In this document: positions 1 through 11,200 of the stretch, piece by piece
Layout of the letters: each line of letters starts with the position of its first letter
Position numbering within the stretch: the first letter of the stretch is position 1
Assembly: GCA_014730235.1 (NCBI GenBank)
Contig: WJIO01000370.1
Span: 1-13,663 of the forward strand
Length of the DNA stretch: 13,663 bases
Source of the DNA: Candidatus Poribacteria bacterium
Lineage (GTDB): Bacteria; Poribacteria; DTPJ01; WJIO01
Direction: 5' to 3'
Program-made: the position numbers and the translations under genes
The notes under the pieces: generated by a model
Databases searched by the model: none
Seen by the model: only the letters and a program-made list of their open reading frames with translations
Told to the model about the DNA's origin: nothing

Positions 1-405
1 ATCAATAAGCTGTTGTGCATAGCCAATAGGTATTTTATACTTCATTCGAGTATGGGTCCAGGCCATAACTACAGGATCATCAATTGACGGTGTTTCTGAT
101 AATGAGCGTTTTTTCCATTCGTTTAAACCTGATTGCAAGTCACCCTCAGGTATATCCACCAGATCATCACTGATGCGGCAAAAAGAATATAAAGCCCTTG
201 CCGCCCGGCATTTTTCTCCCGGAAGTAAACTTGATGCCACATAAAAAGTGCGGCTGTGATGTTTTGTAAGTTTTCGGCAGTGTTCATAAGCCTCTTCCAG
301 AGCTAATCTGTCAACATCAATGAAGTTGAATTCAACATGCTCTTCAAAGGCCTTATAAGCCTTCTCCAGAAGCTTTTCTTCCCAGGAACATGTATATAGT
401 GTCAT
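1..405 (-). CDS. crtB: Phytoene synthase (squalene/phytoene synthase family), N-terminal 135 aa only. The gene continues beyond the window start. Its start ATG (405..403) overlaps the crtI stop (ATGA).
   Basis: Manual translation of the reverse strand gives MTLYTCSWEEKLLEKAYKAFEEHVEFNFIDVDRLALEEAYEHCRKLTKHHSRTFYVASSLLPGEKCRAARALYSFCRISDDLVDIPEG... This carries the hallmark SQS/PSY motifs (HSRTFY, LLPxxxRxAxxALYxFCRxxDDxVD). No in-frame stop occurs to position 1. The ORF is open-ended, so it is absent from the supplied track. Confidence 0.85.
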   Translation of the reverse strand, partial: MTLYTCSWEEKLLEKAYKAFEEHVEFNFIDVDRLALEEAYEHCRKLTKHHSRTFYVASSLLPGEKCRAARALYSFCRISDDLVDIPEGDLQSGLNEWKKRSLSETPSIDDPVVMAWTHTRMKYKIPIGYAQQLID

Positions 406-1934
406 CTCTCACTTTCTATTATTTTACCCGGAATGGATACAGATTTTTCAGGAACGCGCTGTTCCTTAAGAATCCGTTCCACAACAAGACGGGCTGATAT
501 TAATACCATAGGAAGTCCCCCGCCTGGGTGCGTGCTGGCTCCAACAAAGTAGAGGTTTTTATAACGGTCATGACGGTTATGAGGTCGTAAATATCCTACC
601 TGAAATAGGTTATGGCTGAGACCAAAGGCCGAACCTTTAGCCAGATTAAGATAATCTCTGTAATCTGTCGGTTCAATTATCTCTTCAAAAGCTATATACT
701 TTTCCAGATTTTTAATACCAATAGATTCCAGTTTTGCAAAGACTTTATTTCTGGCTTTATCCCGGATTGCATCCCAATCCTGGGGGGTTTCTTCGTTAAT
801 ATGACCTACTGGAACCAAGACCAGAAGGCTGTCACCATCCGGTGGAGCGCAGGAGTCATCGGTACGGGATGGGGAACATACATAAAACGAAGGATCATCA
901 GGCAAAGTCAAATCCCGGAAGATTTTATCAAAGGATTCCCGATAATTATTGTCGGCAAGAAATACGTTGTGATGTTGAAGCTGTTCCGGTCTTGTCCCCT
1001 TTATACCCCAATAAAACATTATGGCCGACGATGAATACTTTTTCCGATACAATCTTTTTGCTTTGTTTTTATCCGGCAGAAGTTCCGAATATACATAAGG
1101 TAAGTCTGCATTAGCTATAATGGCATCAGATTCAACTTTTTCACCGTTTTCCAGAGTTACACCTGTTGCCTTTGAACCTTCCACGTTGATTTTTGCCACC
1201 GATGAGTCATAATGAAACTTCACACCCAAGCCCTGGGCAATATCCGTCAGGGTTTCAACAACTTCATACATACCGCCCCGGGGATACCAAACACCCTGAA
1301 CCGCTTCGGTATATTGTAGAAGGGAATATGTGGCCATAGCATCATAAGGGCTAAGACCCAAATACATGTTTTGAAAGGAAAAGCCAGCCCGAAGGCGGGA
1401 GTCTTTGAAAAACTTTGATGTATTGTTGTAATGTTTCGCCAGTGCCTTTATGCGAATCACCAGTGGGAAGTTTGATGGACTCAGGTATTCCAGCCATGAC
1501 CTGAAGTTTCGACCTACAAAATGCTTTAATGACAGGTGATAATTACGGTAACCTTCTTCCGTAAATCTAAGGAAAGCCTCAAAAGAACCCGGTTCTATAG
1601 ACTCCAACTGGTCGAACATGCTTTTAAGATCACCAGTTATATTCAGCTTTGTTCCATCATGAAAATGCACCTTGTATGTAGGATCAATTCGGATTAAATC
1701 AAGATGGTCTTCCATATTTTCACCCAGGGATTCGTAAGTTTCAGCAAATATTTCTGGCATCAAAAAAAGAGTTGGTCCTGTGTCAAAGCGATGACCATCC
1801 CTCTCAATAATTCCAGTTCGTCCTCCAGGAATAGAATTTTTCTCTAAAATGGTAACTCTACATCCCAAACGAGCTAAACGTGCAGCAGTTGAAAGACCAC
1901 CAATCCCAGCGCCTATTACAATTGCTGTATTCAA
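402..1934 (-). CDS. crtI: Phytoene desaturase (CrtI-type FAD-dependent carotenoid desaturase), 510 aa. Uses a TTG start preceded by an AAGGAG SD.
   Basis: N-terminal Rossmann FAD motif IVIGAGIGGLSTAARLARLG. C-terminal CrtI-family signature YFVGASTHPGGGLPMVLISARLVVERI. Size typical of CrtI. The first codon is RC(1932..1934)=TTG. An upstream in-frame stop is close by, and the SD AAGGAG lies 8 nt upstream. The gene is coupled to crtB by an ATGA overlap. CrtD or CrtN-type desaturases cannot be excluded without a search. Confidence 0.85.
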   Translation of the reverse strand: MNTAIVIGAGIGGLSTAARLARLGCRVTILEKNSIPGGRTGIIERDGHRFDTGPTLFLMPEIFAETYESLGENMEDHLDLIRIDPTYKVHFHDGTKLNITGDLKSMFDQLESIEPGSFEAFLRFTEEGYRNYHLSLKHFVGRNFRSWLEYLSPSNFPLVIRIKALAKHYNNTSKFFKDSRLRAGFSFQNMYLGLSPYDAMATYSLLQYTEAVQGVWYPRGGMYEVVETLTDIAQGLGVKFHYDSSVAKINVEGSKATGVTLENGEKVESDAIIANADLPYVYSELLPDKNKAKRLYRKKYSSSAIMFYWGIKGTRPEQLQHHNVFLADNNYRESFDKIFRDLTLPDDPSFYVCSPSRTDDSCAPPDGDSLLVLVPVGHINEETPQDWDAIRDKARNKVFAKLESIGIKNLEKYIAFEEIIEPTDYRDYLNLAKGSAFGLSHNLFQVGYLRPHNRHDRYKNLYFVGASTHPGGGLPMVLISARLVVERILKEQRVPEKSVSIPGKIIESER

Positions 1935-2001
1935 TATAAATACTCCTTATATATGTTTCATAAGCAATTTCCAATTATATAGATGAGATTTTTTCTTGAT
2001 T

Positions 2002-2172
2002 GTAATCGTTAAAAAATGAAAAATGTGTTTAGAAAATACCTTTATAATCATGGTAAATTACAAAATTTGTCATTCCTGCGAAAGCAGGAATCCAGAAAAA
2101 ACTATCATGGGAGACTGGATTCCTGCTCTCGTAGAAATGACAACTAAATTATATCCATTTTTAAACGATTAC
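2002..2172 (+). mobile_element. Complete MITE-like miniature inverted-repeat element (repeat copy A), 171 bp. It has 14-bp terminal inverted repeats (gtaatcgttaaaaa / tttttaaacgattac) and is flanked by a perfect 6-bp direct repeat TTGATT (1996..2001 and 2173..2178).
   Basis: The TIRs and TSD are read directly from the sequence. Internally there is a GAAA-tetraloop hairpin at 2072..2091 (attcctgc-gaaa-gcaggaat) and a second degenerate hairpin half at 2113..2142. It is near-identical to the copies at 4263..4354 (inverted) and 7881..8010. Confidence 0.65.
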
Positions 2173-2211
2173 TTGATTAGACAATGTTTTTTACATTTCC
2201 ACACTCAAGTC

Positions 2212-3126
2212 TTAAAAACAAATTGCCAGGATAAAACTTACCGAAACACCCAGATTAATTATGAGAGTCTTTGCACATATATTTTCCAACGCTTTATGTT
2301 CTTTATAGTGCTTTTTAAATACCTGAATTATCGTTATCAAAGAAAGTATAAATACTGGCAGAAAAAAGATTAACGCTTTTAAAGGTATACCTGCCCAGAT
2401 AGCAATTAAATATGAAATCCAGATCCCTATACTGAATATAATATAAATCTTACTCATCTTTGACTTACCAAAGCGCACCACCAGGTTTTGCTTTCCTGTC
2501 CTTTTGTCGGCCAGATAATCCGGGAATTCATTAATTAATATCACATTAAATATAGAAAAGATAATAGGTAGTGATGTCCAGTGTATAATATTAGGAAATT
2601 TACCTGTCTGTAAATAGTAAGACGCAGCTACTGTAAGCCATCCATAACAAAAACCTATCCATATTTCTCCAAGTCCTTTATAAGCCCATTGCACAGGTTT
2701 TGCTGAATAAAACAACCCTCCCAAAATCCCGATTATCCCCAGAGGCAAAGTAAATGCGCCGGTATCATAATAAAAATGAAGTATAAATCCTATAACCAGC
2801 GCCGCAGAAACTGATACCAGAGAAGCGATCAAAGCATGATGTCGGGGTATCAATCCTGATTGTATTACCTGGCTGCCTCCTGTAAAGCGATTTCTACCCA
2901 GCTCTGATGAGAGGTTATCCGTTTCATAGTCGTAATATTCTCCTGAATAATAGGTTGCCGAAAGAATCAGAGCAACACACAGAGTTCCCCAGAATAAAAC
3001 TGTCCAGTCAATAACCCCTGTATTATACCAGGCCAGAACATTACCCAGTATAAATGGAAAAATTCCTACTGTGTGAAAAGGCAGTCTGGACAAAGTTATC
3101 CAGGCTTTCAGCTTTTTTATATTCAT
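2212..3126 (-). CDS. UbiA/MenA-superfamily membrane prenyltransferase, 304 aa. Possible lycopene-elongase-like or other isoprenoid prenyltransferase.
   Basis: Polytopic hydrophobic protein. The second Asp-rich motif NEFPDYLADKRTGKQNLVVRFG matches UbiA/MenA NxxxDxxxDxxxGKxTLAVRLG. The first motif region is GEYYDYETD (D/ExxDxxxD-like). The start ATG overlaps the idi-2 stop (ATGA). Confidence 0.8.
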   Translation of the reverse strand: MNIKKLKAWITLSRLPFHTVGIFPFILGNVLAWYNTGVIDWTVLFWGTLCVALILSATYYSGEYYDYETDNLSSELGRNRFTGGSQVIQSGLIPRHHALIASLVSVSAALVIGFILHFYYDTGAFTLPLGIIGILGGLFYSAKPVQWAYKGLGEIWIGFCYGWLTVAASYYLQTGKFPNIIHWTSLPIIFSIFNVILINEFPDYLADKRTGKQNLVVRFGKSKMSKIYIIFSIGIWISYLIAIWAGIPLKALIFFLPVFILSLITIIQVFKKHYKEHKALENICAKTLIINLGVSVSFILAICF

Positions 3127-4181
3127 TTTTTCACCAGATATTTTGTATTTCCCAGTTCCTTGAGGTTAGCTGAACCTGTGCAAAACATAGCAATCTTCAA
3201 TTCTTCAATTATTCTGTTCAGAACGTTTTCCACCAATAAAGGAGATTCCAGGGCTGGAGATAAAAGTGGTAGAGCAATACCTATCACCGAAGCTCCTAAA
3301 GCTATAGCCTTAGCTGCATCAACGCCGTTTCTTATACCTCCTGATGCTATAACAGGTATATCAGGAACAGCGGATTTAACCATATTTAAGCTTTCCGCCG
3401 TTGGTATACCCCAGTCGGAAAAGGTATCCCCTATAGTTCTTTGACAGTCGCTCTTTGCCCGGTAGGATTCGATCATAGCCCAGGATGTACCGCCCGCGCC
3501 GCCGATGTCAATACAGTCAACACCAGCGTCTACAAGTCTGGATGCAACCTCTTTTGATATCCCGCAACCTACCTCTTTGACAATAATAGGCATCTCTATC
3601 TTTCGCCGTAGCTTCTTAATATTTTCCAGCAATCCCCTGAAGTTGGTATTTCCTTCGTATTGTATGGCTTCCTGAAGGGGATTTAGATGGAGGGCCAAAG
3701 CATCAGCACCTATCATGGATATAGCATCGAGACAATTTTCATAATCAAAGCCATTATTAAGCTGAATAGCCCCAATATTTGCTATCAACAAAGCATCAGG
3801 CACTGTATGTCTTACCTGAAACGTATAGGCTAAAGACGGTTGTTCCAGTGATATTCTCTGGGAACCAACCATCATGCCTACCCGCAGTTTCTGGGCAGCT
3901 ATGGCCAGGTTCTCATTGATTTGAAAGCTCAGCTCCGTTCCGCCGGTCATAGATTCAATGATAACAGGATAATTCAGGACTTTGTCGAATAAATTAAGGG
4001 AAAGATCAATATCGCTCATATTAATATCCGGCAAAGCCTGGTGGATAAAGCTATAATTTTCAAAACCCGTTGATTTGTTCTTAAATCCAACATCCTCATT
4101 AAGGCATATACGGATATGATCGGCTTTTCTGTCCTGAGTCATCCTGTTGAATTTTGTTTCTCGGTCTTCTGAATTCCGCAT
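3123..4181 (-). CDS. fni: Isopentenyl-diphosphate delta-isomerase type 2 (FMN-dependent IDI-2), 352 aa.
   Basis: Diagnostic IDI-2 motifs are present: RKADHI, SMTGG, VGSQR, IVKEVGCGIS, DIGGAGGTSWAMIE and ASGGIRNGVDAAKAIALGA (TIM-barrel FMN enzyme). The SD GGAG lies upstream of the ATG. Confidence 0.9.
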   Translation of the reverse strand: MRNSEDRETKFNRMTQDRKADHIRICLNEDVGFKNKSTGFENYSFIHQALPDINMSDIDLSLNLFDKVLNYPVIIESMTGGTELSFQINENLAIAAQKLRVGMMVGSQRISLEQPSLAYTFQVRHTVPDALLIANIGAIQLNNGFDYENCLDAISMIGADALALHLNPLQEAIQYEGNTNFRGLLENIKKLRRKIEMPIIVKEVGCGISKEVASRLVDAGVDCIDIGGAGGTSWAMIESYRAKSDCQRTIGDTFSDWGIPTAESLNMVKSAVPDIPVIASGGIRNGVDAAKAIALGASVIGIALPLLSPALESPLLVENVLNRIIEELKIAMFCTGSANLKELGNTKYLVKK

Positions 4182-4262
4182 AAAATATACTCCGAGTTTT
4201 GACTTACATTTTTGGCTCTTCCGAATTGAGTGTAGAAATAATTTAAAAATTTTCTAAGCATA

Positions 4263-4354
4263 TCATTCCTGCTTTCGCAGGAATGACAAATTTTGTAATT
4301 TACCATCATTATAAAGGTATTTTCTAAACACATTTTCCATTTTTTAACGATTAC
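4263..4354 (-). repeat. Truncated copy B of the MITE-like repeat, in inverted orientation relative to copy A (TIR end at 4341..4354).
   Basis: The reverse complement of 4263..4354 matches 2002..2092 of copy A with only 2 mismatches over about 90 nt. This includes the shared aaaaatg duplication and the hairpin tcattcctgc-tttc-gcaggaatga (4263..4286). The distal TIR and TSD are absent. Confidence 0.6.
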
Positions 4355-4502
4355 TCAGAATATATTCTTTTGCTTGAGAAAGTATAGGTTGGGTCATGCC
4401 TGTAAAGCATAATTGGTTCACCAAAATAAATTCATTTTAAATGAATAATCAGCAAACCAGACCCAACAAATTACCTTCCTGTTAAATATTGCAAAGTAAT
4501 CT

Positions 4503-5303
4503 CTATTCAAATGTACATATAGCACCAGGGCGTTTAATTCTCAAAACTACTGTTTCAAACACCCGAAAGGGATGATCCATATCCTCAGCCCCGAGATAAG
4601 CAGTAGTTAGATCCTCTCCCACAACCAGGTCCATATTTTGTTTACCTGTAGCCACAATTATGGCCTGATCACCTTCTATTGCTGGTGATTGAAAAACACC
4701 TTCAGTCATCAATTCCTTGACCATAGCTATTTCAAGAACTCCGGTTCCTTCATACACTCGGTGCATCTTGGCATATAAAGAGGGGCTTACCACCATTGCA
4801 TAAGGACCATAAAAACCACCCGACATTAGCTTTTCCGTACCAGCTACCACATTCTGAAAAGCATTGCCGGTAACCTGCCAGTCCTTAACCTCTGCGGTTG
4901 TACGACCTTCGGCGTTTAACAGTCCTTCATAACCTTCCATACCATTGAAAACCATATTGTCTTCTTGCATAGCGCAATAAGCAGCCGCTCCGGCAGCAGG
5001 CCCTAGTTCCAGCGGAATACCATATACTTTCGCCGATTCAATATCCCGCCAGTGAAGTTTAAAATCTTTTTGTATCATGGGTATGGTGATATTTTCGCGC
5101 TTCTTAACAGCTATTTCACCTTCTTTAAAACCACCCATGGAAGGTTTTGGGACCACAGTAGCACCAGCACCCAAAGGCCCGGTAATGCCTATAAATCTGC
5201 GTCCAACCAGTCGCCTTCGTGCAGATTCCACCACAAGTTTATCTATTTTTTCCCAGTCTTCGCTGCTTAAAGGAGCATCATCTCTTGCAAGATAATCAGC
5301 CAT
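4503..5303 (-). CDS. Family-1 encapsulin nanocompartment shell protein (HK97-fold, linocin M18-like), 266 aa.
   Basis: It aligns by eye along its length to the Thermotoga maritima encapsulin. [37 protein letters not shown] matches [50 protein letters not shown] matches DGIEGPYTLVINT. The C-terminal [23 protein letters not shown] matches [23 protein letters not shown]. A strong SD GGAGGG is present. The start lies 1 nt after the upstream EncFtn stop. Confidence 0.9.
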   Translation of the reverse strand: [266 protein letters not shown]

Positions 5304-5304
5304 T

Positions 5305-5712
5305 TTATTCTCCCTCCGTTTTCTTTTCCTCTATAAGGCTTCCTACAGTCGAATCTGACTTCTCTTCTTCAGGTTCTGTGTTAGATTTTAATGATTCAAT
5401 CATTTCTTCAACCTCTTCATAACCTTCGTCATAGAATTTCTGTTCATCCGAGTCCAGTTCATGAAGCAGTCGGAGAAATTCACCGGCATGAACTCTCTCT
5501 TCGTCTGCAATATCTACAAGAACTTCTATAGCCAATTTGTTGTCCGTTGACTCCGCCAGTTGAATATAAAGCTGAACTGCTTCATATTCTGCGGAAATCA
5601 TAAATCTTATCGCCCTGATCAGTTCCTCATGAGTTAGTTTTCTGTCGTTTTTAAGCCCTGCGAATGCTGACCCAAAATCTGGCATTATAATACCTCCTTG
5701 AAACTCTTGCAT
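5305..5712 (-). CDS. Encapsulated ferritin-like protein (EncFtn/Flp) cargo, 135 aa, with an acidic C-terminal linker and a GSL-type encapsulin targeting peptide.
   Basis: Ferritin-like ExxH region AEYEAVQLYIQLAESTDNKLAIEVLVDIADEERVHAGEFLRLLHEL (EncFtn-type di-iron ligands). The C-terminal tail EPEEEKSDSTVGSLIEEKKTEGE contains a TVGSLI motif like known cargo-loading peptides. The gene sits immediately upstream of the encapsulin shell gene. The SD AGGAGG lies 7 nt upstream. Confidence 0.8.
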   Translation of the reverse strand: MQEFQGGIIMPDFGSAFAGLKNDRKLTHEELIRAIRFMISAEYEAVQLYIQLAESTDNKLAIEVLVDIADEERVHAGEFLRLLHELDSDEQKFYDEGYEEVEEMIESLKSNTEPEEEKSDSTVGSLIEEKKTEGE

Positions 5713-5726
5713 CTTTATAAAAATGC

Positions 5727-7301
5727 TTAATTCAAACGTTTTGTCATATTGACTATTCCCTGGCGCAGTTCATCTGGTTCAGGCATCTGATCTGTACGCA
5801 TTAATTCAGCAATAGCCGGCATATGAGCAATTTTACCTGCACCTGAGGCAGCCATAACTTTATCATTTTTAATGTAATAAGCCACAAAGTTACGCATTGA
5901 TGGTTTACCATGAAAAATTATTTCATCCCAATCTTTTGCATAACCTACATATCTTAGATTGACTCCCAGTTGGTTAGTCCAGAAAAATGGAATACTCCGG
6001 TATTCCGTCTCTTTACCAGCCATATTAAAGCCAGCCACCCGTCCAAGCTGTTCCGCCAGACGCCAATGCTCAATTCGAATTCTTTCCCCTGATCGCCAAT
6101 CTATAAAGCTTACTATATCCCCGGCTGCGTATATATCTTCAGTAACCTGAAAATGCTTATCTACTGTAACACTTCTATCTGGATTTAATTCCATATTTTT
6201 TAGAAAATCTGTAGCAGGACGAACCCCTACACCTGTTACCACAAAATCTGATTCAAGAGTTTCTCCGTTGTCCAGGACAACTTTCTCTACTGATTTATTA
6301 CCTTCAAATCGAGCCACTTTACGGCCAAGTTTAAATACTGTGCCGCTGTTTTCATGTATTTCTTTATACATACTCCCCACTTCAGCACCCAAAATTCTCT
6401 GGTAAGGTAATTCTTCCGGAGCTACAATAGTGATATAAAGTCCTTTTTCAGCTAAATTCGCTGAAATTTCCATACCGATAAAACTCGCCCCGATTATTAC
6501 CAGCTTAGCACCTTTTTGAGCAAGACTTCTGATTTTCAGAGAATTATCCGGATTTCTTAGGGTAATAACATTATCCAGACCTGCACCCGGTACATCAACT
6601 TCTCTTGGAATACTGCCCGGAGCCAAAAGAACCTTATCATATTTGAGATATTTTCCATTGTCAAGCATCAGCTTTTTGCTGTGCGCATCTACTCCAGTTA
6701 CATTATGACCTGTCAAAACTTCAATACCGTATTCCGAATAAAATTCTTCTGAACGCAGCATTTCCGGTTCTTGGTCTTCGCTTTTCAAAAAGCCTTTGCT
6801 TAAACCTGTTCTATCATAAGGTAAACGGCTTTCTTTTGTAAGCATAAGGATTTTTCCCTCAAATCCTCCTTGTCGCATAGCCTCTGCTGCTGTGGCTCCA
6901 GCCGCACCTGTTCCCACAATAATAAAGGTCTGTTTATCAGCGTCTGGATTATATTTTGCCATATCAGGATGACGAGTTTCCGAAGCATCTTCTTCCACAA
7001 TTACAATAACGTTATCATCTTCAATCCGCACATCAAATCGAGCCAGGGAATCCAGGGAAGGTGGTTCTTTAAGATCTCCCGTTACAACATCAAAACAGGC
7101 CTGATGCCATGGACAGCGTATGTGATGTTGGTGCAATACTCCCTCTTCCAACGGCGCGCCAAAGTGAGGGCATGTCGATCCAAGAGCATAAAAATTATTG
7201 TTATCCCGAACTAATAATACCTCTACTTCACCTACTAAAAATTCCTTCATTTCGCCATTTTCTAAATCTGTAGTTTTTGCTACAATCTTTTCAATCTTCA
7301 T
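5727..7301 (-). CDS. Rieske [2Fe-2S] domain fused to an FAD/NAD(P)-dependent pyridine-nucleotide-disulfide (ferredoxin-reductase/AIF-like) oxidoreductase, 524 aa.
   Basis: Rieske motif CPHFGAPLEEGVLHQHHIRCPWH (CxH-x16-CxxH) at residues 44-66. FAD GxGxxG motif FIIVGTGAAGATAAEA. NAD-binding motif LVIIGASFIGMEISANL. A conserved YAAGDIV and a ferredoxin-reductase-like C-terminal domain are present. SD AAGGAGGG. The stop lies 14 nt before the EncFtn start. Confidence 0.85.
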   Translation of the reverse strand: MKIEKIVAKTTDLENGEMKEFLVGEVEVLLVRDNNNFYALGSTCPHFGAPLEEGVLHQHHIRCPWHQACFDVVTGDLKEPPSLDSLARFDVRIEDDNVIVIVEEDASETRHPDMAKYNPDADKQTFIIVGTGAAGATAAEAMRQGGFEGKILMLTKESRLPYDRTGLSKGFLKSEDQEPEMLRSEEFYSEYGIEVLTGHNVTGVDAHSKKLMLDNGKYLKYDKVLLAPGSIPREVDVPGAGLDNVITLRNPDNSLKIRSLAQKGAKLVIIGASFIGMEISANLAEKGLYITIVAPEELPYQRILGAEVGSMYKEIHENSGTVFKLGRKVARFEGNKSVEKVVLDNGETLESDFVVTGVGVRPATDFLKNMELNPDRSVTVDKHFQVTEDIYAAGDIVSFIDWRSGERIRIEHWRLAEQLGRVAGFNMAGKETEYRSIPFFWTNQLGVNLRYVGYAKDWDEIIFHGKPSMRNFVAYYIKNDKVMAASGAGKIAHMPAIAELMRTDQMPEPDELRQGIVNMTKRLN

Positions 7302-7356
7302 TCTTCCCTCCTTAATGTATAAAGTTGTAAAACATTGTTATAAGAAATTCTACAAG

Positions 7357-7394
7357 TTCCCCTTCCCCAAAGGGGGATCAAGGGGATTTTTATT
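7357..7394 (+). terminator. GC-rich stem-loop (cccctt-cccc-aaa-gggg-gatc-aagggg) followed by ATTTTTATT. It is an intrinsic-terminator-like structure on the + strand, in the 5' leader region of the minus-strand Rieske operon.
   Basis: Read directly from the sequence. The nested stems are 6 bp and 4 bp, followed by a T-tract. No + strand gene ends here, so the function is uncertain. It could be a leader hairpin, an sRNA terminator, or an insulator against antisense transcription. Confidence 0.3.
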
Positions 7395-7880: not shown

Positions 7881-8010
7881 GTAATCGTTAAAAATGTGTT
7901 TAGAAAATACCTTTATAATGATGGTAAATTACAAAACTTGTCATTCCTGCGAAGGCAGGAATCCAGTAGATCCGCATAAAGACTGGATTTTTGCCTTCGC
8001 AGGAATGACA
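7881..8010 (+). repeat. Copy C of the MITE-like repeat, in the same orientation as copy A. It has the 5' TIR but lacks the 3' TIR. It contains an almost perfect 28-bp-arm palindrome (7939..7966 / 7982..8009) around a 15-nt loop.
   Basis: 7881..7965 matches copy A 2002..2093 except for a 7-nt indel (aaaaatg) and 3 substitutions. The arms gtcattcctgcgaaggcaggaatccagt and actggatttttgccttcgcaggaatgac are inverted complements with 2 mismatches. The loop sequence differs completely from copy A. Confidence 0.6.
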
Positions 8011-8060
8011 GCATAAAGAGGTTTCTTATCTTTACCACACCGAACTCGGAAGAACCAAAT
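8011..8060 (+). repeat. Direct repeat DR1 (about 48 nt). It is paired with DR2 at 8174..8222, with about 6 mismatches and 160 nt spacing.
   Basis: DR1 reads ataaagaGgtttcttatctttacCacacCgaacTcggaagaAccaAat and DR2 reads ataaagaAgtttcttatctttacTacacTgaacCcggaagaGccaTaaat. Both are read directly from the sequence. Confidence 0.5.
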
Positions 8061-8086
8061 TTATGATTGGATTTATTAACTTGCCG

Positions 8087-8130: not shown

Positions 8131-8173
8131 CCTTCATAAATAACTCACAAAAGTTAAGACAATAAATGGCTAA

Positions 8174-8222
8174 TAAAGAAGTTTCTTATCTTTACTACAC
8201 TGAACCCGGAAGAGCCATAAAT
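8174..8222 (+). repeat. Direct repeat DR2, the partner of DR1. It ends 9 nt before the GGGAGG SD of the A2M gene.
   Basis: See DR1. It overlaps the immediate 5' UTR of the A2M gene. Confidence 0.5.
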
Positions 8223-8245
8223 AATATTCAGGGAGGTACTTAAGA

Positions 8246-11200
8246 ATGGATCAGGACAAACAGCAATTATCAGAAGAGAATAGCAAAAAACCCAGGTTAA
8301 GCGTCGGGCTTTGGTTAGGTATAATTGCTGTATTACTGGCTGTTATCATTGCCGGTCTGGCCTATATCTGGGGAACACCGAGAGGCAAGATACCTGTTAC
8401 TATAGAAGACTTTGATCCTGAGGGTGAAATAACCAGAACCACAAATTTTACTGTGGAATTTTCACAGGATATGGTACCCGAAAATCAGGTAGATATACAG
8501 ATAGATAATTTACCCATTGAATTTTCACCGGAAATACCAGGTAAATTTCGATGGATAGCCAGAAATAAATTAAGATTTTTCCCTGAGATAACGTTAAAGC
8601 CATCAACTGAATATACAGCCAAAATCCTGCCTGAGATTTGCACAGTTGAGGGTATGTATCTGAAGGGTGACAGACGCTTTAGTTTTTATACTCAAAGATT
8701 TCGCGTCGATAATACATATTTTTCTTTTAATCTGGCCGATCCTGATGGTGACAAAATCAGAATTCTTGGCACAATTGAATTCAATTATGCTGTTAAAGCT
8801 GATGATTTAGCTGAAAATTTATCTCTGTCATTTGAAAATGGGCCTAAAATACCATATAAAGTCATAACTCCCGATTCTGGACTTGCCATTAAAATTGAAA
8901 CCGAATCCCTGGAACGGAACGAATCGGATAAAAACCTTCAGCTTAATATCTCCCAAAATTTAAAACCAATTGATGGAAATCTCGGTCTTTCCCAGGATTA
9001 TGTCCAGACCATAGTAATGAAAGCCAAAGAGGAATTAAAAGTTGAGGGTGTTTTTGCAGAACAAAGGGGTCAAAAAAGTTATATAAAAATAAGGTTTAGT
9101 TCCCCTGTATCTGTTGATATGGCAAAGCAGTTTATAACCCTTGAACCGAAAATGGAACATACAATTTCAACCAGCAGTTACAATTACGTGGAAATCAGTG
9201 GAAATTTTCAGGCTGGTAAAGGTTATACTGTAAATGTCAACAAAGGCATTATAGGTGTTGACGGCTCCCGGCTTAAAAGCGATTTCTCATCAAGGGTGGT
9301 AATGCAAAACCTGGAACCCAGTATAGGTTTTGTTGGCGATGGTATTTATCTTTCCAGGCAGGGAAATCTCAATATAGGTCTGTCAACTATAAATATCAAC
9401 GAAGTAGAAATAGAAATACAAAAGGTCTATGCTAATAACCTCATACACTTACTTCATACTAATACAGTAGAAAGAGATTATGGATGGTACAACCTTAATA
9501 ACCTGGGTAAGGTTGTAAATGAAAAAGAAATAAATATCGCATCCCGTCTTAACGAAGAAATTGTTACACCAATAAGTATGCGGGATTATCTAATGTCCGA
9601 AAGCAAAGGTATATTTGCTCTGATTGCTCGAAATGTTGAAAAACGTTGGCAATACAGCCGAAAGTGGGTAATGATTACGGATCTGGGTATAACCGTTAAA
9701 AATGCAGGTGGGGATTTCCTGATCTGGGTAAATTCCCTTTCATCCCTGGAGCCTGTGTCAAATGCTGAGATCACTTTATTAAGCCGTAATAACCAGATCA
9801 TGGGTACAAAATCAACAGATCAGGACGGCACAGCCGTTTTTAACTTATCTGAAAGCGTTATGGAGGAATTTGAACCATACCTGGTCACAGTCTCCCATGA
9901 AGGCGATCTGTCTTTTCTGGATATGGATCATCGAAGGGTAGACACCACAGACTATAATGTAGAAGGTAGACCCTACCTTCAGTATGGTTATGATGTCTTT
10001 ATATACGGAGATCGGGATATATACAGACCGGGAGAGACTGCCCATGTAGTGGCAGTTATTAGAGGAACAAAAACCTCAGTTCCCCCATCTTTTCCTCTTA
10101 AAATGGAAATCCTGGGCCCGGACAATCGCATATTTACCGAGTTGATGCAAAAGACCGGTGATGCAGGCGCATGTGAGTTTGATGTGGAATTTCCCAGCTA
10201 TGTAAAAACAGGGCGTTATACTGCCAGGGCTATTGTGGGTAAAGATAACGAAATTGGCCGGGGCTATTTCAGCGTGGAAGAATTCATGCCGGATCGTATT
10301 AAGGTTAAGGTAACCACCGATTCAGATTCCTATGAATTGGGGCAGGATGTCAAGGTAAATGTGGAAGCTGTTAATCTGTTCGGCCCTCCTGCCAGCGGCA
10401 GACAGCTGGAAGCCCGGGCAGAAATTATAAGCCATGATTTTTCTGTTCCTCAATGGAAGTCCTTCACATTCCGGGATTCCAGCAAAAGTTTTGATAAAAA
10501 GAGAATGGATCTGGGAAAGGCAACGCTGGATCAGAACGGAAAATATACATATAATATGAATATAAAGGACAATATCCAGCCTCCTTCATCCCTTCAGGCC
10601 AATATATCAGCTACGGTACTTGAACCCGGTGGGCGGGGGGTAACAGGTTATAAAACCGTTGATGTGCATCCCTACTCCCATTATGTAGGCATCAGGCGCA
10701 CAAAAGAAGGCTATGCGGATGTGGGCAAACCTGCTGAGATGGATTTTATTGCAGTTGATAAAAATGGTAAAGTTGCGCCGGGTAGACAATACGAGGTTTC
10801 ATGTTACCGGATAACATGGCATTCCATATTGCGGCGTGCAGGTCGCAGGGGTTACAGGTATGTATCAGAAAAACAGGAAAACCTTGTTAAATCCTTCCCC
10901 CTGCAATCAGGCGAAAGACCGACCAAATTCTCTTTTACTCCTGACGATTACGGTGAATACCGCGTAGCTATTAAAGACATTGAATCATCCGCTTCGGCGT
11001 CTATAAACTTCTACGCCTCCGGCTGGGGTTATGCTCCATGGGCAATGAATAAACCAGAAAGATTGGAGATCGATCTGGACAAAGAATCCTACAATGCGGG
11101 AGATACTGCCCAGGTGCAAATCCGATCCCCCTTTGCTGGTAAGCTTCTGCTTACAGTGGAAGGTGATAGGATACATCATCGCCAATCCGTTATTATGGAC

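What the first reader, a model, noticed from the sequence alone, without database searches (positions are those of the whole stretch)
4503..7301. Three-gene operon: Rieske-[2Fe-2S]/FAD-NAD(P)H oxidoreductase fusion, EncFtn cargo and encapsulin shell
The 524-aa protein combines a Rieske ferredoxin domain (CPH...CPWH) with a complete ferredoxin-reductase/AIF-like flavoprotein. This gives a self-sufficient NAD(P)H to FAD to [2Fe-2S] electron chain. It ends only 14 nt before the EncFtn cargo gene, which is 1 nt from the family-1 encapsulin shell gene, and all three have strong SDs. This suggests one transcript. Canonical EncFtn-encapsulin operons have two genes, and iron release from ferritin-type stores needs a reductant (compare Bfd/ferredoxin-reductase with bacterioferritin). 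A dedicated reductase co-encoded with an encapsulin iron store would be an undescribed redox partner for iron mobilisation or redox maintenance of the nanocompartment. The flavoprotein has no recognisable GSL-type targeting peptide, so it is probably an external partner rather than cargo.
Basis: partly seen in the sequence, partly recalled or inferred. Interest (0 to 1): 0.8.

Follow-up and report, generated by a model that had tools for sequence, protein, structure and literature searches.

The report
Reductase gene beside encapsulated-ferritin operon
A Poribacteria contig carries an ordinary iron-storing protein nanocompartment (ferritin-like cargo plus shell) directly behind a self-contained NAD(P)H/FAD/iron-sulfur reductase gene; the trio recurs in two related lineages, but the reductase also exists without the compartment, so a dedicated iron-release partnership remains a testable idea rather than a finding.

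Summary
On the minus strand lie a 524-aa Rieske + ferredoxin-reductase fusion ("RED", 7301-5727), an EncB/EncFtn-type cargo (5685-5305) and a family-1, EncA-like shell (5303-4503). Spacing is tight, all three have strong SDs, and no terminator lies between them.

The contig is from a Candidatus Poribacteria MAG. The same RED-EncFtn-shell block occurs in two other Poribacteria-like lineages (L093/L089, L172/L168). However:
- Six sister lineages have 60-86%-identical RED orthologues with no encapsulin. There RED leads directly into carotenoid (CrtI-CrtB) or pterin (SDR-FolB) genes.
- The cargo-shell pair is a clean 1.3-kb indel after RED's stop codon.
- 0 of 80 more distant RED loci carry an encapsulin.
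- RED has no targeting peptide and no residues specific to encapsulin-linked copies.

In favour of a link, related encapsulin operons often carry other flavoprotein reductases (8 of 40 groups) or a small ferredoxin (13 of 58) at adjacent positions.

Verdict: this is a canonical iron nanocompartment cassette, probably co-transcribed with a non-dedicated stress-island reductase. I put a direct electron-donor role at about 0.3. Interest is moderate.

The parts
5727..7301 (-). RED: 524-aa Rieske [2Fe-2S] + FAD/NAD(P)H ferredoxin-reductase fusion (AIFM3-like), including stop codon
   Evidence: ORF. Pfam Rieske, Pyr_redox_2, Pyr_redox and Reductase_C. [quoted passage not shown] AF2 pLDDT 92.9, pTM 0.91.
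6990..7301 (-). Rieske ferredoxin domain of RED (residues 1-104), with ligands C44, H46, C63 and H66. It lacks the extra disulfide cysteines of bc1-type Rieske proteins, so it is the ferredoxin/oxygenase type.
   Evidence: invariant C44 H46 C63 H66. Motif CPHFGA...CPWHQA read. Classification as the low-potential type rests on my own knowledge.
5730..6932 (-). Flavoprotein part of RED (residues 124-524): FAD and NAD(P)H Rossmann folds plus the Reductase_C domain
   Evidence: PDB sequence hits to rubredoxin, putidaredoxin, TodA and BphA4 reductases, 1.5e-53 to 1e-34. Foldseek TM(target) 0.87-0.93.
7306..7313 (-). Shine-Dalgarno AAGGAGGG of RED
   Evidence: Sequence. All RED orthologues have GGAGG at this position.
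5686..5726 (-). RED-cargo intergenic spacer (41 nt), containing SD AAGGAGG (5699-5693). No terminator.
   Evidence: Fold z-score -1.2, with only a weak AU hairpin and no T-run. Equivalent gaps are 19-28 nt in L093 and L172.
5305..5685 (-). EncB/EncFtn-type ferritin-like cargo, 126 aa from the probable start 5685 (the longest ORF starts at 5712)
   Evidence: NCBIfam EncB_fam 106 bits, cutoff 90. Pfam Rubrerythrin 8.6e-6. PDB hits to P. furiosus EncFtn 4.6e-14 and M. xanthus EncC 5.1e-11. The E33...Y40...E63-x-x-H66 motif is present.
5308..5349 (-). C-terminal targeting peptide region of the cargo (TVGSLIEEKKTEGE)
   Evidence: Sequence. TVGSLI is conserved in the L089/L093 orthologue (MTVGSLISEKK). 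TVGSL is the motif cited as targeting-peptide-like in PMC8346489.
4503..5303 (-). Family-1 encapsulin shell protein, 266 aa, EncA-like clade
   Evidence: Linocin_M18 2.3e-69. encap_f1 equivalog 279 bits, cutoff 100. PDB hits to M. xanthus EncA 3.9e-83 and Q. thermotolerans T=4 shell 4.9e-79, but T. maritima only about 5e-14. W85 aligns with EncA W96.
4240..4502 (-). Structured 3' region after the shell gene, including a REP-like hairpin (4265-4286). Probable 3' boundary of the unit.
   Evidence: Fold z-score -5.4, with 0 of 200 shuffles folding as well. Repeat family. There is no canonical T-run terminator.
7890..8010 (.). Upstream copy of the REP/MITE-like element. Together with 4265-4336 it forms a 72-nt, 97% inverted repeat bracketing the three-gene block.
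   Evidence: (D1, I2, I3).
3123..4181 (-). Context: type 2 IPP isomerase, the next co-directional gene after a 320-nt gap
   Evidence: TIGR02151 427 bits, cutoff 281.
2212..3126 (-). Context: UbiA-family prenyltransferase, with no specific family assignment
   Evidence: Pfam UbiA 4.2e-29. All NCBIfam hits are below cutoff.
402..1934 (-). Context: CrtI-family carotenoid desaturase. It is the orthologue (69-71% identity) of the gene that directly follows RED in L170 and L171.
   Evidence: TIGR02734 502 bits, cutoff 238. tblastn.
1..399 (-). Context: N-terminal part of phytoene synthase CrtB, which runs off the window
   Evidence: The translation aligns by eye with L171 SQS_PSY.

Best explanation
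The cargo-shell pair is a canonical family-1 iron nanocompartment. Established knowledge of the family, inferred here: EncB/EncFtn-type ferritin-like subunits are loaded into an EncA-like shell through their C-terminal TVGSL peptide. They oxidise Fe2+ and deposit ferric mineral inside the shell, which removes Fenton-active iron.

In this Poribacteria lineage the 1.2-1.3-kb cassette sits immediately 3' of an AIFM3-like Rieske-flavoprotein gene and is most likely transcribed with it. The gaps are 41 nt and 1 nt, and no terminator lies between the genes. The unit lies within a photo-oxidative-stress and carotenoid gene island.

RED is a soluble single-polypeptide NAD(P)H -> FAD -> [2Fe-2S] electron-transfer enzyme. 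Its orthologues function without any encapsulin in sister lineages. The coupling is therefore facultative and primarily one of co-expression: the cassette rides on RED's transcription unit. RED is not a compartment-specific component.

Shown: gene identities, spacing, the conserved block in three lineages, and indel behaviour of the cassette.
Inferred: co-transcription, the stress-island theme, and every statement about electron flow.
For: Identities.

Operon-like anatomy.

Block recurrence. L093/L089 reads class II photolyase-RED-EncFtn-ENC-SDR-FolB. L172/L168 reads RR-RED-EncFtn-ENC-SDR-FolB-HPPK.

RED is not dedicated:
- L173/L174 read RED-SDR-FolB-HPPK-GCH1.
- L171/L170 and L175/L176 read RED-CrtI-CrtB-CruF.
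- L177 reads RED-RED-AKR-CrtI-CrtB.
- L081 and L084 have other contexts.
- Encapsulin-linked P0013 is 85.8% identical to unlinked P0015 and 83.9% to carotenoid-linked P0004.
- No residue position is specific to linked REDs, and there is no targeting peptide.

Cassette behaviour. L172 and L173 share about 80% DNA identity on both flanks. EncFtn-ENC plus a terminator hairpin is a 1338-nt segment replaced by 20 nt in L173.

Island theme:
- The window continues IDI2-UbiA-CrtI-CrtB.
- A photolyase sits next to RED in L093.
- MsrAB, Fpg, B12-binding protein, TspO and UvdE lie around RED in L081.
- Desulfoferrodoxin and DJ-1 precede the closest EncFtn-ENC in L085.

Breadth:
- 0 of 80 RED loci from other phyla have an encapsulin or cargo.
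- RED homologues have no conserved neighbour across phyla.
Against: - The cassette lies directly after RED in two different downstream contexts: carotenoid genes in the window and pterin genes in L093/L172. The RED-cassette junction has therefore been kept while the surroundings changed.
- Three of the four closest shell lineages (at least 68% identity) keep RED adjacent.
- Other flavoprotein reductases and ferredoxins are enriched at equivalent positions in related operons. This hints at a real need for an electron-transfer partner.
- Co-transcription is not demonstrated. An internal promoter inside RED cannot be excluded: promoter-like hits occur at 6664-6636 and 6975-6948, though the total count is no more than the shuffles give.
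Confidence: 0.5

Rival explanations
1. RED is the external redox partner of the compartment. NAD(P)H reduces FAD, FAD reduces the low-potential Rieske cluster, and the cluster passes single electrons to the stored ferric mineral. The route could be a flavin held at the shell's conserved Trp (W85), or soluble flavin or Fe(III) chelates passing the pores. Fe2+ is released on demand. RED would be a fused analogue of a ferredoxin reductase plus Bfd acting on bacterioferritin.
For: - The RED-EncFtn-ENC block is conserved in three lineages, with 19-41-nt gaps, despite different downstream genes.
- Among 67 dereplicated EncA-like loci, 8 of 40 assessable groups have an adjacent co-directional Pyr_redox_2 flavoprotein of four different subfamilies: RED, Lpd-type, TrxR-like and rubredoxin-reductase-like.
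- 13 of 58 groups have a roughly 62-aa Fer4 ferredoxin right after the shell gene.
- 10 of 11 Pyr_redox_2-like ORFs in 697 kb of these loci are adjacent to the operon.
- Shell W85 aligns with EncA W96, stated to be the equivalent of the T. maritima flavin-stacking W90.
- The literature names an unidentified cytosolic ferredoxin or flavoprotein partner as the missing piece.
- EncD shows that EncA-type systems do use a flavin ferric reductase.
Against: - RED orthologues persist unchanged without the cassette.
- The cassette persists without RED in L085.
- 0 of 80 RED loci elsewhere carry an encapsulin.
- RED has no targeting peptide and no linked-specific residues.
- No Fur box or shared motif lies upstream of RED.
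- One of the 'convergent' flavoproteins is a bona fide dihydrolipoyl dehydrogenase (585 bits, cutoff 409). Another is thioredoxin-reductase-like and sits in oxidative-stress contexts. These may be co-regulated neighbours rather than partners.
- The enrichment test used seeds taken from the adjacent genes.
- In T. maritima the shell flavin had no measurable effect on iron release.
Confidence: 0.3
2. RED belongs functionally to the carotenoid gene cluster, for example as an electron donor or redox enzyme for a carotenoid-modifying step. The encapsulin pair is an unrelated cassette that landed, or was retained, between RED and the rest of the cluster.
For: - RED is directly followed, at 40-55 nt, by the CrtI-family gene plus CrtB-CruF-PlsY-GT2 in L171/L170 and L175/L176.
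- In L177 RED is followed by AKR-CrtI-CrtB.
- The window has the orthologous CrtI (69-71% identity) and CrtB 3.8 kb downstream of RED on the same strand, with IDI2 and a UbiA prenyltransferase in between.
- Counting the window, 4 of 9 close lineages link RED to carotenoid genes, against 3 of 9 for the encapsulin.
Against: - RED equally precedes pterin genes in L173, L172 and L093.
- No carotenoid link appears in L081 or L084.
- Among the 80 distant loci the only crtI-family neighbours are weak matches (35-37% over about 100 aa) in a few actinobacterial loci (L076, L077; also L075 by clustering), whose RED homologues lack the Rieske domain.
- To my knowledge no carotenoid enzyme has this architecture.
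Confidence: 0.15
3. The adjacency is incidental and the genes are separately transcribed: a promoter inside the 3' part of RED drives EncFtn-ENC.
For: - Sigma-70-like matches lie inside RED at 6664-6636 (11 of 12) and 6975-6948 (10 of 12).
- The cassette works in another context in L085, 92 nt after a DJ-1 gene.
Against: - The number of promoter-like hits equals the shuffle expectation (14 found, 14.2 expected).
- The intergenic gaps are too short for a promoter, and no terminator is present.
- The junction is conserved in three lineages.
Confidence: 0.05

Closest known systems
Myxococcus xanthus EncA / EncB-EncC / EncD iron-storage encapsulin system
   Same: - The shell is most similar to EncA (3.9e-83).
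- The cargo passes the EncB-family model and hits EncC.
- It has a C-terminal targeting peptide.
- The system is linked to oxidative stress and iron sequestration (PMC11126975).
- EncD shows that this type of compartment uses an NAD(P)H-dependent flavin ferric reductase for iron release.
   Different: - The window holds a single cargo gene. No EncD-like cargo was looked for beyond the window.
- The shell is 266 aa against 287 aa and lacks about 11 residues in the E-loop region, so its T number is unknown.
- The candidate reductase here is a 524-aa cytosolic Rieske flavoprotein without a targeting peptide, not a 100-aa encapsulated flavin binder.
Bacterioferritin-Bfd (plus ferredoxin reductase) iron mobilisation, e.g. 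Pseudomonas aeruginosa
   Same: The concept matches: a [2Fe-2S] protein carries electrons from an NAD(P)H-dependent flavoprotein to a protein-caged ferric mineral. This is cited as the analogy.
   Different: - Bfd is a small Bfd-type [2Fe-2S] protein that docks on heme-containing Bfr. RED has a Rieske-fold cluster fused to its reductase.
- The encapsulin shell has no heme.
- No docking or electron path is known.
IMEF encapsulin operons of Firmicutes with a co-encoded 2Fe-2S ferredoxin
   Same: A family-1 iron-storing encapsulin has an extra operon gene for an Fe-S electron carrier, proposed to release stored iron (PMC8346489).
   Different: - That ferredoxin is Bfd-like and carries an N-terminal TVGSL targeting motif.
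- It co-purifies with the shell and is conserved across many IMEF operons.
- RED has no such motif and is linked in only three related lineages.
Oxygenase-coupled NADH-ferredoxin reductases with Rieske ferredoxins (BphA4-BphA3, TodA-TodB, HcaD-HcaC) and eukaryotic AIFM3
   Same: - The flavoprotein fold matches (TM 0.87-0.93; E 1e-53 to 1e-34).
- The Rieske ferredoxin domain resembles HcaC and AndAb.
- AIFM3-type fusion of both domains: sources name close homologues 'apoptosis-inducing factor 3'.
   Different: - RED scores below every NCBIfam equivalog cutoff (for example HcaD 244 bits, cutoff 450).
- No oxygenase gene is nearby.
- No solved structure covers the fused architecture.
- I found no characterised function for the bacterial fusion family.
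Thermotoga maritima flavin-binding encapsulin shell
   Same: The flavin-stacking Trp (W90, equivalent to EncA W96) aligns with invariant W85 of this shell clade. The authors propose an unknown auxiliary electron-transport protein.
   Different: - The window shell is only distantly related to the T. maritima shell (about 5e-14).
- Flavin binding is untested here, and the site is said to be partly occluded in T=3 EncA.
- The flavin had no effect on iron release in vitro.

Membership tests
Family 1 encapsulin shell protein | HK97-fold Linocin_M18 / encap_f1 sequence family, scoring above curated cutoffs | tested here: met
   PF04454 2.3e-69. NF041155 equivalog 279.3 bits, cutoff 100. EncA 3.9e-83.
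Family 1 encapsulin shell protein | An adjacent cargo gene whose product carries a C-terminal targeting peptide | tested here: met
   The cargo stop is 1 nt before the shell ATG. The cargo C-terminus carries TVGSLI, conserved in orthologues.
Family 1 encapsulin shell protein | Self-assembly into an icosahedral shell (T=1, 3 or 4) that encloses the cargo | not testable with these tools
   Needs expression and EM. The T number cannot be read from the sequence. The closest solved shells are T=3 and T=4, but this protein lacks about 11 E-loop residues.
EncFtn / EncB-family encapsulated ferritin-like cargo | Family model scoring above the curated cutoff | tested here: met
   NF058679 EncB_fam 106 bits, cutoff 90. 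TIGR04535 scores 84.5 bits, below its cutoff of 125.
EncFtn / EncB-family encapsulated ferritin-like cargo | Two-helix half-ferritin with ferroxidase-centre residues (Glu, Tyr, Glu-x-x-His) | tested here: met
   E33, Y40, E63 and H66 are present and aligned with identical residues of P. furiosus EncFtn. The residue roles come from my knowledge of the R. rubrum EncFtn structure.
EncFtn / EncB-family encapsulated ferritin-like cargo | Ferroxidase activity and iron mineralisation only inside the shell | not testable with these tools
   Biochemical assay needed.
Glutathione-reductase-type ferredoxin reductase (ONFR / AIF-like) fused to a Rieske ferredoxin (AIFM3-like architecture) | Rieske CxH...CxxH ligands plus Pyr_redox_2 with two Rossmann motifs plus Reductase_C | tested here: met
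   Invariant C44, H46, C63, H66, G130, G132 and G271. Confident two-domain model, pTM 0.91. Fold matches.
Dioxygenase ferredoxin-reductase equivalogs (HcaD, AndAa, etc.) | Score above the NCBIfam equivalog cutoff, with an oxygenase operon context | tested here: not met
   HcaD 243.6 bits, cutoff 450. AndAa 217.9 bits, cutoff 650. The window holds no oxygenase gene.
Encapsulin-dedicated redox component (EncD-type cargo or IMEF-type targeted ferredoxin) | A targeting peptide (C-terminal, or an N-terminal TVGSL-like motif) | tested here: not met
   None of nine RED orthologues has a GSL/TVGSL-like motif.
Encapsulin-dedicated redox component (EncD-type cargo or IMEF-type targeted ferredoxin) | Consistent co-occurrence with encapsulin operons across the family | tested here: not met
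   3 of 9 close RED lineages are linked. 0 of 80 distant RED loci are linked. 3 of 40 assessable shell groups have RED.
Encapsulin-dedicated redox component (EncD-type cargo or IMEF-type targeted ferredoxin) | NAD(P)H-dependent reduction and release of compartment-stored iron | not testable with these tools
   An in vitro iron-release assay is required.
Bfd-type bacterioferritin-associated ferredoxin | A small Bfd-like [2Fe-2S] domain | tested here: not met
   RED's cluster domain is Rieske (PF00355, PF13806). No Bfd-like domain was reported.

The most novel reading that the evidence does not exclude
RED is a genuine external electron donor for the nanocompartment. It docks on the shell, possibly at the conserved W85 flavin site, and drives NAD(P)H-dependent iron mobilisation. 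More generally, EncA-like ferritin-cargo encapsulins repeatedly recruit interchangeable electron-transfer modules. These would be Rieske-FAD fusions, rubredoxin-reductase-like and TrxR-like flavoproteins, and small 4Fe-4S-type ferredoxins. That would be a case of non-orthologous displacement, and it would identify the long-sought cytosolic partner for encapsulin iron release.
Probability: 0.25. Interest if true: 0.8.

Novelty: new variant of a known kind. Interest (0 to 1): 0.45.

Why it matters
How iron leaves encapsulin stores is an acknowledged open question. Reviews say electron-transfer components are required, that iron release had 'yet to be shown', and that a cytosolic ferredoxin or flavoprotein partner is hypothetical. 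So far only the internal cargo EncD has been shown to do it.

This locus and its two sister loci offer a concrete, clonable candidate for an external partner. The neighbourhood census suggests that flavoprotein or ferredoxin genes beside EncA-like ferritin operons are commoner than the main text of the large 2021 survey reports.

If the link is only regulatory, the locus is still useful. It shows an encapsulated-ferritin cassette behaving as a gain/loss module inside a photoprotection island (carotenoids, photolyase) of an uncultured phylum.

Tried and rejected
- **RNA genes.** Rfam (gathering threshold) and tRNA scans of the window found nothing.
- **Fur box.** A consensus scan upstream of RED in nine lineages gave best matches of 10-11 of 19, no better than shuffles.
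- **Shared upstream motif.** An exact 9-mer search across RED upstream regions found only one trivial AT-rich word in 3 of 9.
- **Targeting peptide in RED.** None found.
- **Residues specific to encapsulin-linked REDs.** Zero columns.
- **Terminator between RED and cargo.** None found; fold z-score -1.2.
- **Sensitivity of the '0 of 80' result.** Profile HMMs of the shell and cargo, run against six-frame ORFs of all RED-side loci, still gave no hits.
- **Conserved partner of RED homologues across phyla.** None found. The largest neighbour cluster covers 10 of 91 loci.
- **Literature.** No paper focuses on 'encapsulin' plus 'Rieske': four papers hold both words, each only incidentally. No paper holds 'Poribacteria' plus 'encapsulin'. 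The AIFM3, Rieske and bacterial-homologue search returned only clinical AIFM3 papers.
- **Supplement of PMC8346489.** The RED architecture (PF00355-PF07992-PF14759) appears 24 times within +-10 genes of family-1 encapsulins. The two entries I could read are Burkholderia DyP systems at positions -5 and -6, not adjacent. The stored file is truncated, so it could not be quantified.
- **Lpd-type neighbour.** I first took the flavoprotein in L099/L103 as a convergent partner. NCBIfam calls it a true dihydrolipoyl dehydrogenase, so I down-weighted it.

Full report
**1. What is in the window**

The window is a complete 13,663-nt contig. [quoted passage not shown]

All genes of the finding lie on the minus strand.

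- **RED (7301-5727).** It combines Pfam Rieske (5.5e-19), Pyr_redox_2 (6.7e-56), Pyr_redox and Reductase_C.
  - The four cluster ligands (C44, H46, C63, H66) and the Rossmann glycines are invariant in 15 homologues.
  - An AlphaFold2 model is confident as one rigid two-domain body (pLDDT 92.9, pTM 0.91).
  - The flavoprotein part matches putidaredoxin, TodA, BphA4, ArR and AIF-type reductases by sequence and by fold (TM(target) 0.87-0.93).
  - No solved structure covers the fusion.
  - It falls below every NCBIfam dioxygenase-reductase cutoff.
- **Cargo.** It passes NCBIfam EncB_fam (106 bits, cutoff 90).
  - It matches P. furiosus EncFtn and M. xanthus EncC.
  - It keeps the E...Y...ExxH ferroxidase pattern and ends in a TVGSLI targeting peptide.
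  - Its real start is almost certainly ATG 5685. AAGGAGG lies 7 nt upstream, and orthologues start M(M)PDFGS. The gap to RED is therefore 41 nt.
- **Shell (5303-4503).** It is a family-1 encapsulin (encap_f1 279 bits, cutoff 100).
  - It belongs to the EncA-like clade: EncA 3.9e-83 and the Q. thermotolerans T=4 shell 4.9e-79, against T. maritima at about 5e-14.

The cargo stop and the shell start are 1 nt apart. All three genes have GGAGG-type SDs.

No terminator-like site lies at either junction, and the RED-cargo spacer folds no better than shuffles (z -1.2). The 260 nt after the shell gene are strongly structured (z -5.4) and contain a REP-like hairpin.

**2. Surroundings**

Downstream on the same strand, after a 320-nt gap, lie four genes:
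- type 2 IPP isomerase;
- a UbiA prenyltransferase;
- a CrtI-family desaturase;
- the N-terminus of phytoene synthase, at the window edge.

The encapsulin pair therefore sits inside a carotenoid gene cluster. Upstream and divergent is a bacterial alpha-2-macroglobulin of more than 1,813 aa.

A 77-90-nt repeat with a perfect hairpin occupies each of the three large intergenic regions. Its copies bracket the RED-cargo-shell block and the IDI2-UbiA block as inverted repeats.

**3. Does the reductase travel with encapsulins?**

*From the RED side.*
- The fusion family is large, with about 50% identity in cyanobacteria, Deltaproteobacteria, Planctomycetes and others.
- In 80 loci from one-genome-per-species contigs (28-51% identity), none has a shell or cargo within +-10 kb. 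This holds by tblastn and by profile HMM.
- No neighbour is conserved across phyla.

Nine lineages of the close clade (60-65% identical to the window RED) were inspected. Their contexts are:

| Lineage | Gene order |
|---|---|
| window | RED-EncFtn-ENC-IDI2-UbiA-CrtI-CrtB |
| L093/L089 | class II photolyase-RED-EncFtn-ENC-SDR-FolB |
| L172/L168 | RR-RED-EncFtn-ENC-SDR-FolB-HPPK |
| L173/L174 | RED-SDR-FolB-HPPK-GCH1 |
| L171/L170 | RED-CrtI-CrtB-CruF-PlsY-GT2 |
| L175/L176 | RED-CrtI-CrtB-CruF-PlsY-GT2 |
| L177 | RED-RED-AKR-CrtI-CrtB |
| L081-83 | Fpg-RED-B12-binding |
| L084 | no encapsulin, carotenoid or pterin genes beside RED |

So 3 of 9 lineages carry the encapsulin pair, always directly after RED. 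Counting the window, 4 of 9 carry carotenoid genes.

- Linked and unlinked REDs are interleaved orthologues. P0013 (linked) is 85.8% identical to P0015 (unlinked).
- No residue position is specific to the linked copies, and none has a targeting peptide.
- L172 and L173 come from the same sample and share about 80% DNA identity on both flanks. They differ by a clean 1,338-nt segment (EncFtn, ENC and a terminator hairpin) replaced by 20 nt.

*From the shell side.*
- The four closest shell lineages (68-77% mutual identity) are the window, L089/93, L168/172 and L085.
- L085 has desulfoferrodoxin-DJ-1-EncFtn-ENC-PFOR and no RED.
- A reductase homologue (P0007) occurs in the same sample as L085, but on another contig and in another context.
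- RED and shell similarities are congruent, with the window as the outlier in both. The block looks like one ancestral arrangement inherited vertically and lost several times, not repeated independent recruitment.

**4. A broader pattern worth recording**

The 86 shell loci collapse to 67 groups at 95% identity.

- 8 of 40 groups with enough flanking sequence have a co-directional Pyr_redox_2 flavoprotein immediately beside the cargo-shell pair.
- The flavoproteins are RED (3 groups), a dihydrolipoyl-dehydrogenase type (L099, L103), a thioredoxin-reductase-like type (L110; L112/116/117), and a rubredoxin-reductase/NirB-N-like type 15 nt after the shell gene (L146).
- 13 of 58 groups have a roughly 62-aa Fer4_13/15 ferredoxin directly after the shell gene.
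- In 697 kb of these loci, 10 of 11 Pyr_redox_2-like ORFs are adjacent to the operon.

Caveats:
- The search seeds came from those same genes.
- The groups are phylogenetically clustered.
- The Lpd-type protein passes the true lipoamide dehydrogenase model.
- The TrxR-like genes sit with MsrP-like and desulfoferrodoxin genes, so shared oxidative-stress regulation explains them as well as partnership does.

**5. Comparison with what is known**

- The large 2021 survey reports Bfd-like ferredoxins only for IMEF operons. Its main text mentions no reductase for Flp operons.
- Its supplementary neighbourhood table does contain the RED architecture 24 times within +-10 genes. The two readable cases are Burkholderia DyP systems at positions -5 and -6.
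- EncD is an encapsulated NAD(P)H-dependent flavin ferric reductase of the EncA system.
- The T. maritima shell binds flavin at W90, stated to be the equivalent of EncA W96. That residue aligns with invariant W85 here. The flavin had no measurable effect on iron release.
- Reviews explicitly leave room for an unidentified cytosolic ferredoxin or flavoprotein partner.
- No paper in the held library focuses on a Rieske protein together with an encapsulin, and none mentions encapsulins in Poribacteria.

**6. Weighing**

*For a functional link:*
- the RED-cassette junction is kept in three lineages although the downstream genes differ;
- spacing is tight;
- analogous electron-transfer genes sit beside related operons;
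- the chemistry is plausible, and it answers a named open question.

*Against a dedicated link:*
- RED is retained unchanged where the cassette is absent;
- the cassette works elsewhere without RED;
- there is no association outside one clade;
- RED has no targeting peptide, no co-adapted residues and no iron-regulatory motif;
- RED is linked to carotenoid genes at least as often as to the encapsulin.

The neighbourhoods consistently hold photo-oxidative-damage genes:
- photolyase;
- carotenoid synthesis genes;
- Fpg, UvdE and MsrAB;
- TspO and a B12-binding protein;
- SOR and DJ-1.

This fits co-regulation of an iron-sequestering compartment with other stress genes.

*Probabilities:*
- 0.5: a canonical EncB-type nanocompartment cassette co-transcribed with a non-dedicated Rieske flavoprotein in a stress and carotenoid island.
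- 0.3: RED is a true electron donor for iron mobilisation.
- 0.15: RED serves the carotenoid pathway.
- 0.05: the genes are separately transcribed neighbours.

**7. Verdict**

- The encapsulin itself is an ordinary new member of a known family.
- The conserved three-gene arrangement is a lineage-restricted variant not described in the literature I could search.
- It gives a directly testable candidate for an acknowledged gap, but present evidence does not show dedication or electron transfer.
- Interest is 0.45.

Noticed in passing
window 2002-2143, 4265-4354, 7890-8010: A REP/MITE-like repeat of 77-90 nt has a perfect hairpin, TCATTCCTGC-GAAA-GCAGGAATGA. Five hairpin copies occur against 0 expected. 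The copies fill the three large intergenic regions. As 72-90-nt, 97-98% inverted repeats they bracket the RED-EncFtn-ENC block and the IDI2-UbiA block. The element is absent from all 177 other loci fetched.
   Followed up: partly
window 8225-13663 (+), runs off the end: A giant ORF of more than 1,813 aa encodes a bacterial alpha-2-macroglobulin (A2M_BRD, bMG3/5/6/10, MG2 and TED domains). It is divergent from RED. Its leader holds a 56-nt direct repeat (8013-8068 and 8173-8228, 82% identity).
   Followed up: partly
window 1-4181 (-): The encapsulin pair is embedded in a carotenoid cluster: type 2 IPP isomerase, UbiA-family prenyltransferase, CrtI-family desaturase and the start of CrtB. The UbiA protein fits no named family. 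I suspect it is lycopene-elongase-like, but that was not tested.
   Followed up: partly
L088, L091, L092, L094-L099, L101, L103-L105, L139, L153 (directly after the shell gene): A roughly 62-aa single-cluster ferredoxin (Fer4_13/Fer4_15) follows the shell gene in 13 of 58 dereplicated EncA-like loci with ferritin-like cargo. The main text of the 2021 encapsulin survey does not mention this accessory gene for Flp systems.
   Followed up: partly
L146 6571-7776; L110 168-1202; L112 736-1770; L099 8009-9433; L103 256-1680: Non-orthologous NAD(P)H flavoproteins sit immediately beside ferritin-cargo encapsulin operons on the same strand. They are rubredoxin-reductase/NirB-N-like, thioredoxin-reductase-like and dihydrolipoyl-dehydrogenase types.
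   Followed up: partly
L172 3259-4596 versus L173 1771-1790: Two related populations occur in the same ENA sample (ERZ23498390). They differ by a clean 1,338-nt indel holding EncFtn, the shell gene and an intrinsic-terminator-like hairpin, placed between the RED stop codon and an SDR gene. Both flanks are about 80% identical.
   Followed up: yes
L177 6001-9230: Two RED paralogues (about 70% identical) lie in tandem ahead of an aldo-keto reductase and CrtI-CrtB-CruF.
   Followed up: partly
L093 3-464: A class II CPD photolyase (E 1e-73 to M. mazei photolyase) ends 14 nt before the RED start codon. This strengthens the photoprotection theme of the RED neighbourhoods.
   Followed up: yes
window ~7345-7385 (-): A GC-rich hairpin (UCCCCUU..CCCCC-UUUG-GGGG-AAGGGGA) lies 45-85 nt upstream of the RED start, in an otherwise AT-rich leader. 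Its function is unknown.
   Followed up: no
Supplementary file 3 of PMC8346489: The exact RED domain architecture (PF00355-PF07992-PF14759) is listed 24 times within +-10 genes of family-1 encapsulins in the truncated copy held. The two readable entries are Burkholderia DyP systems at positions -5 and -6.
   Followed up: partly
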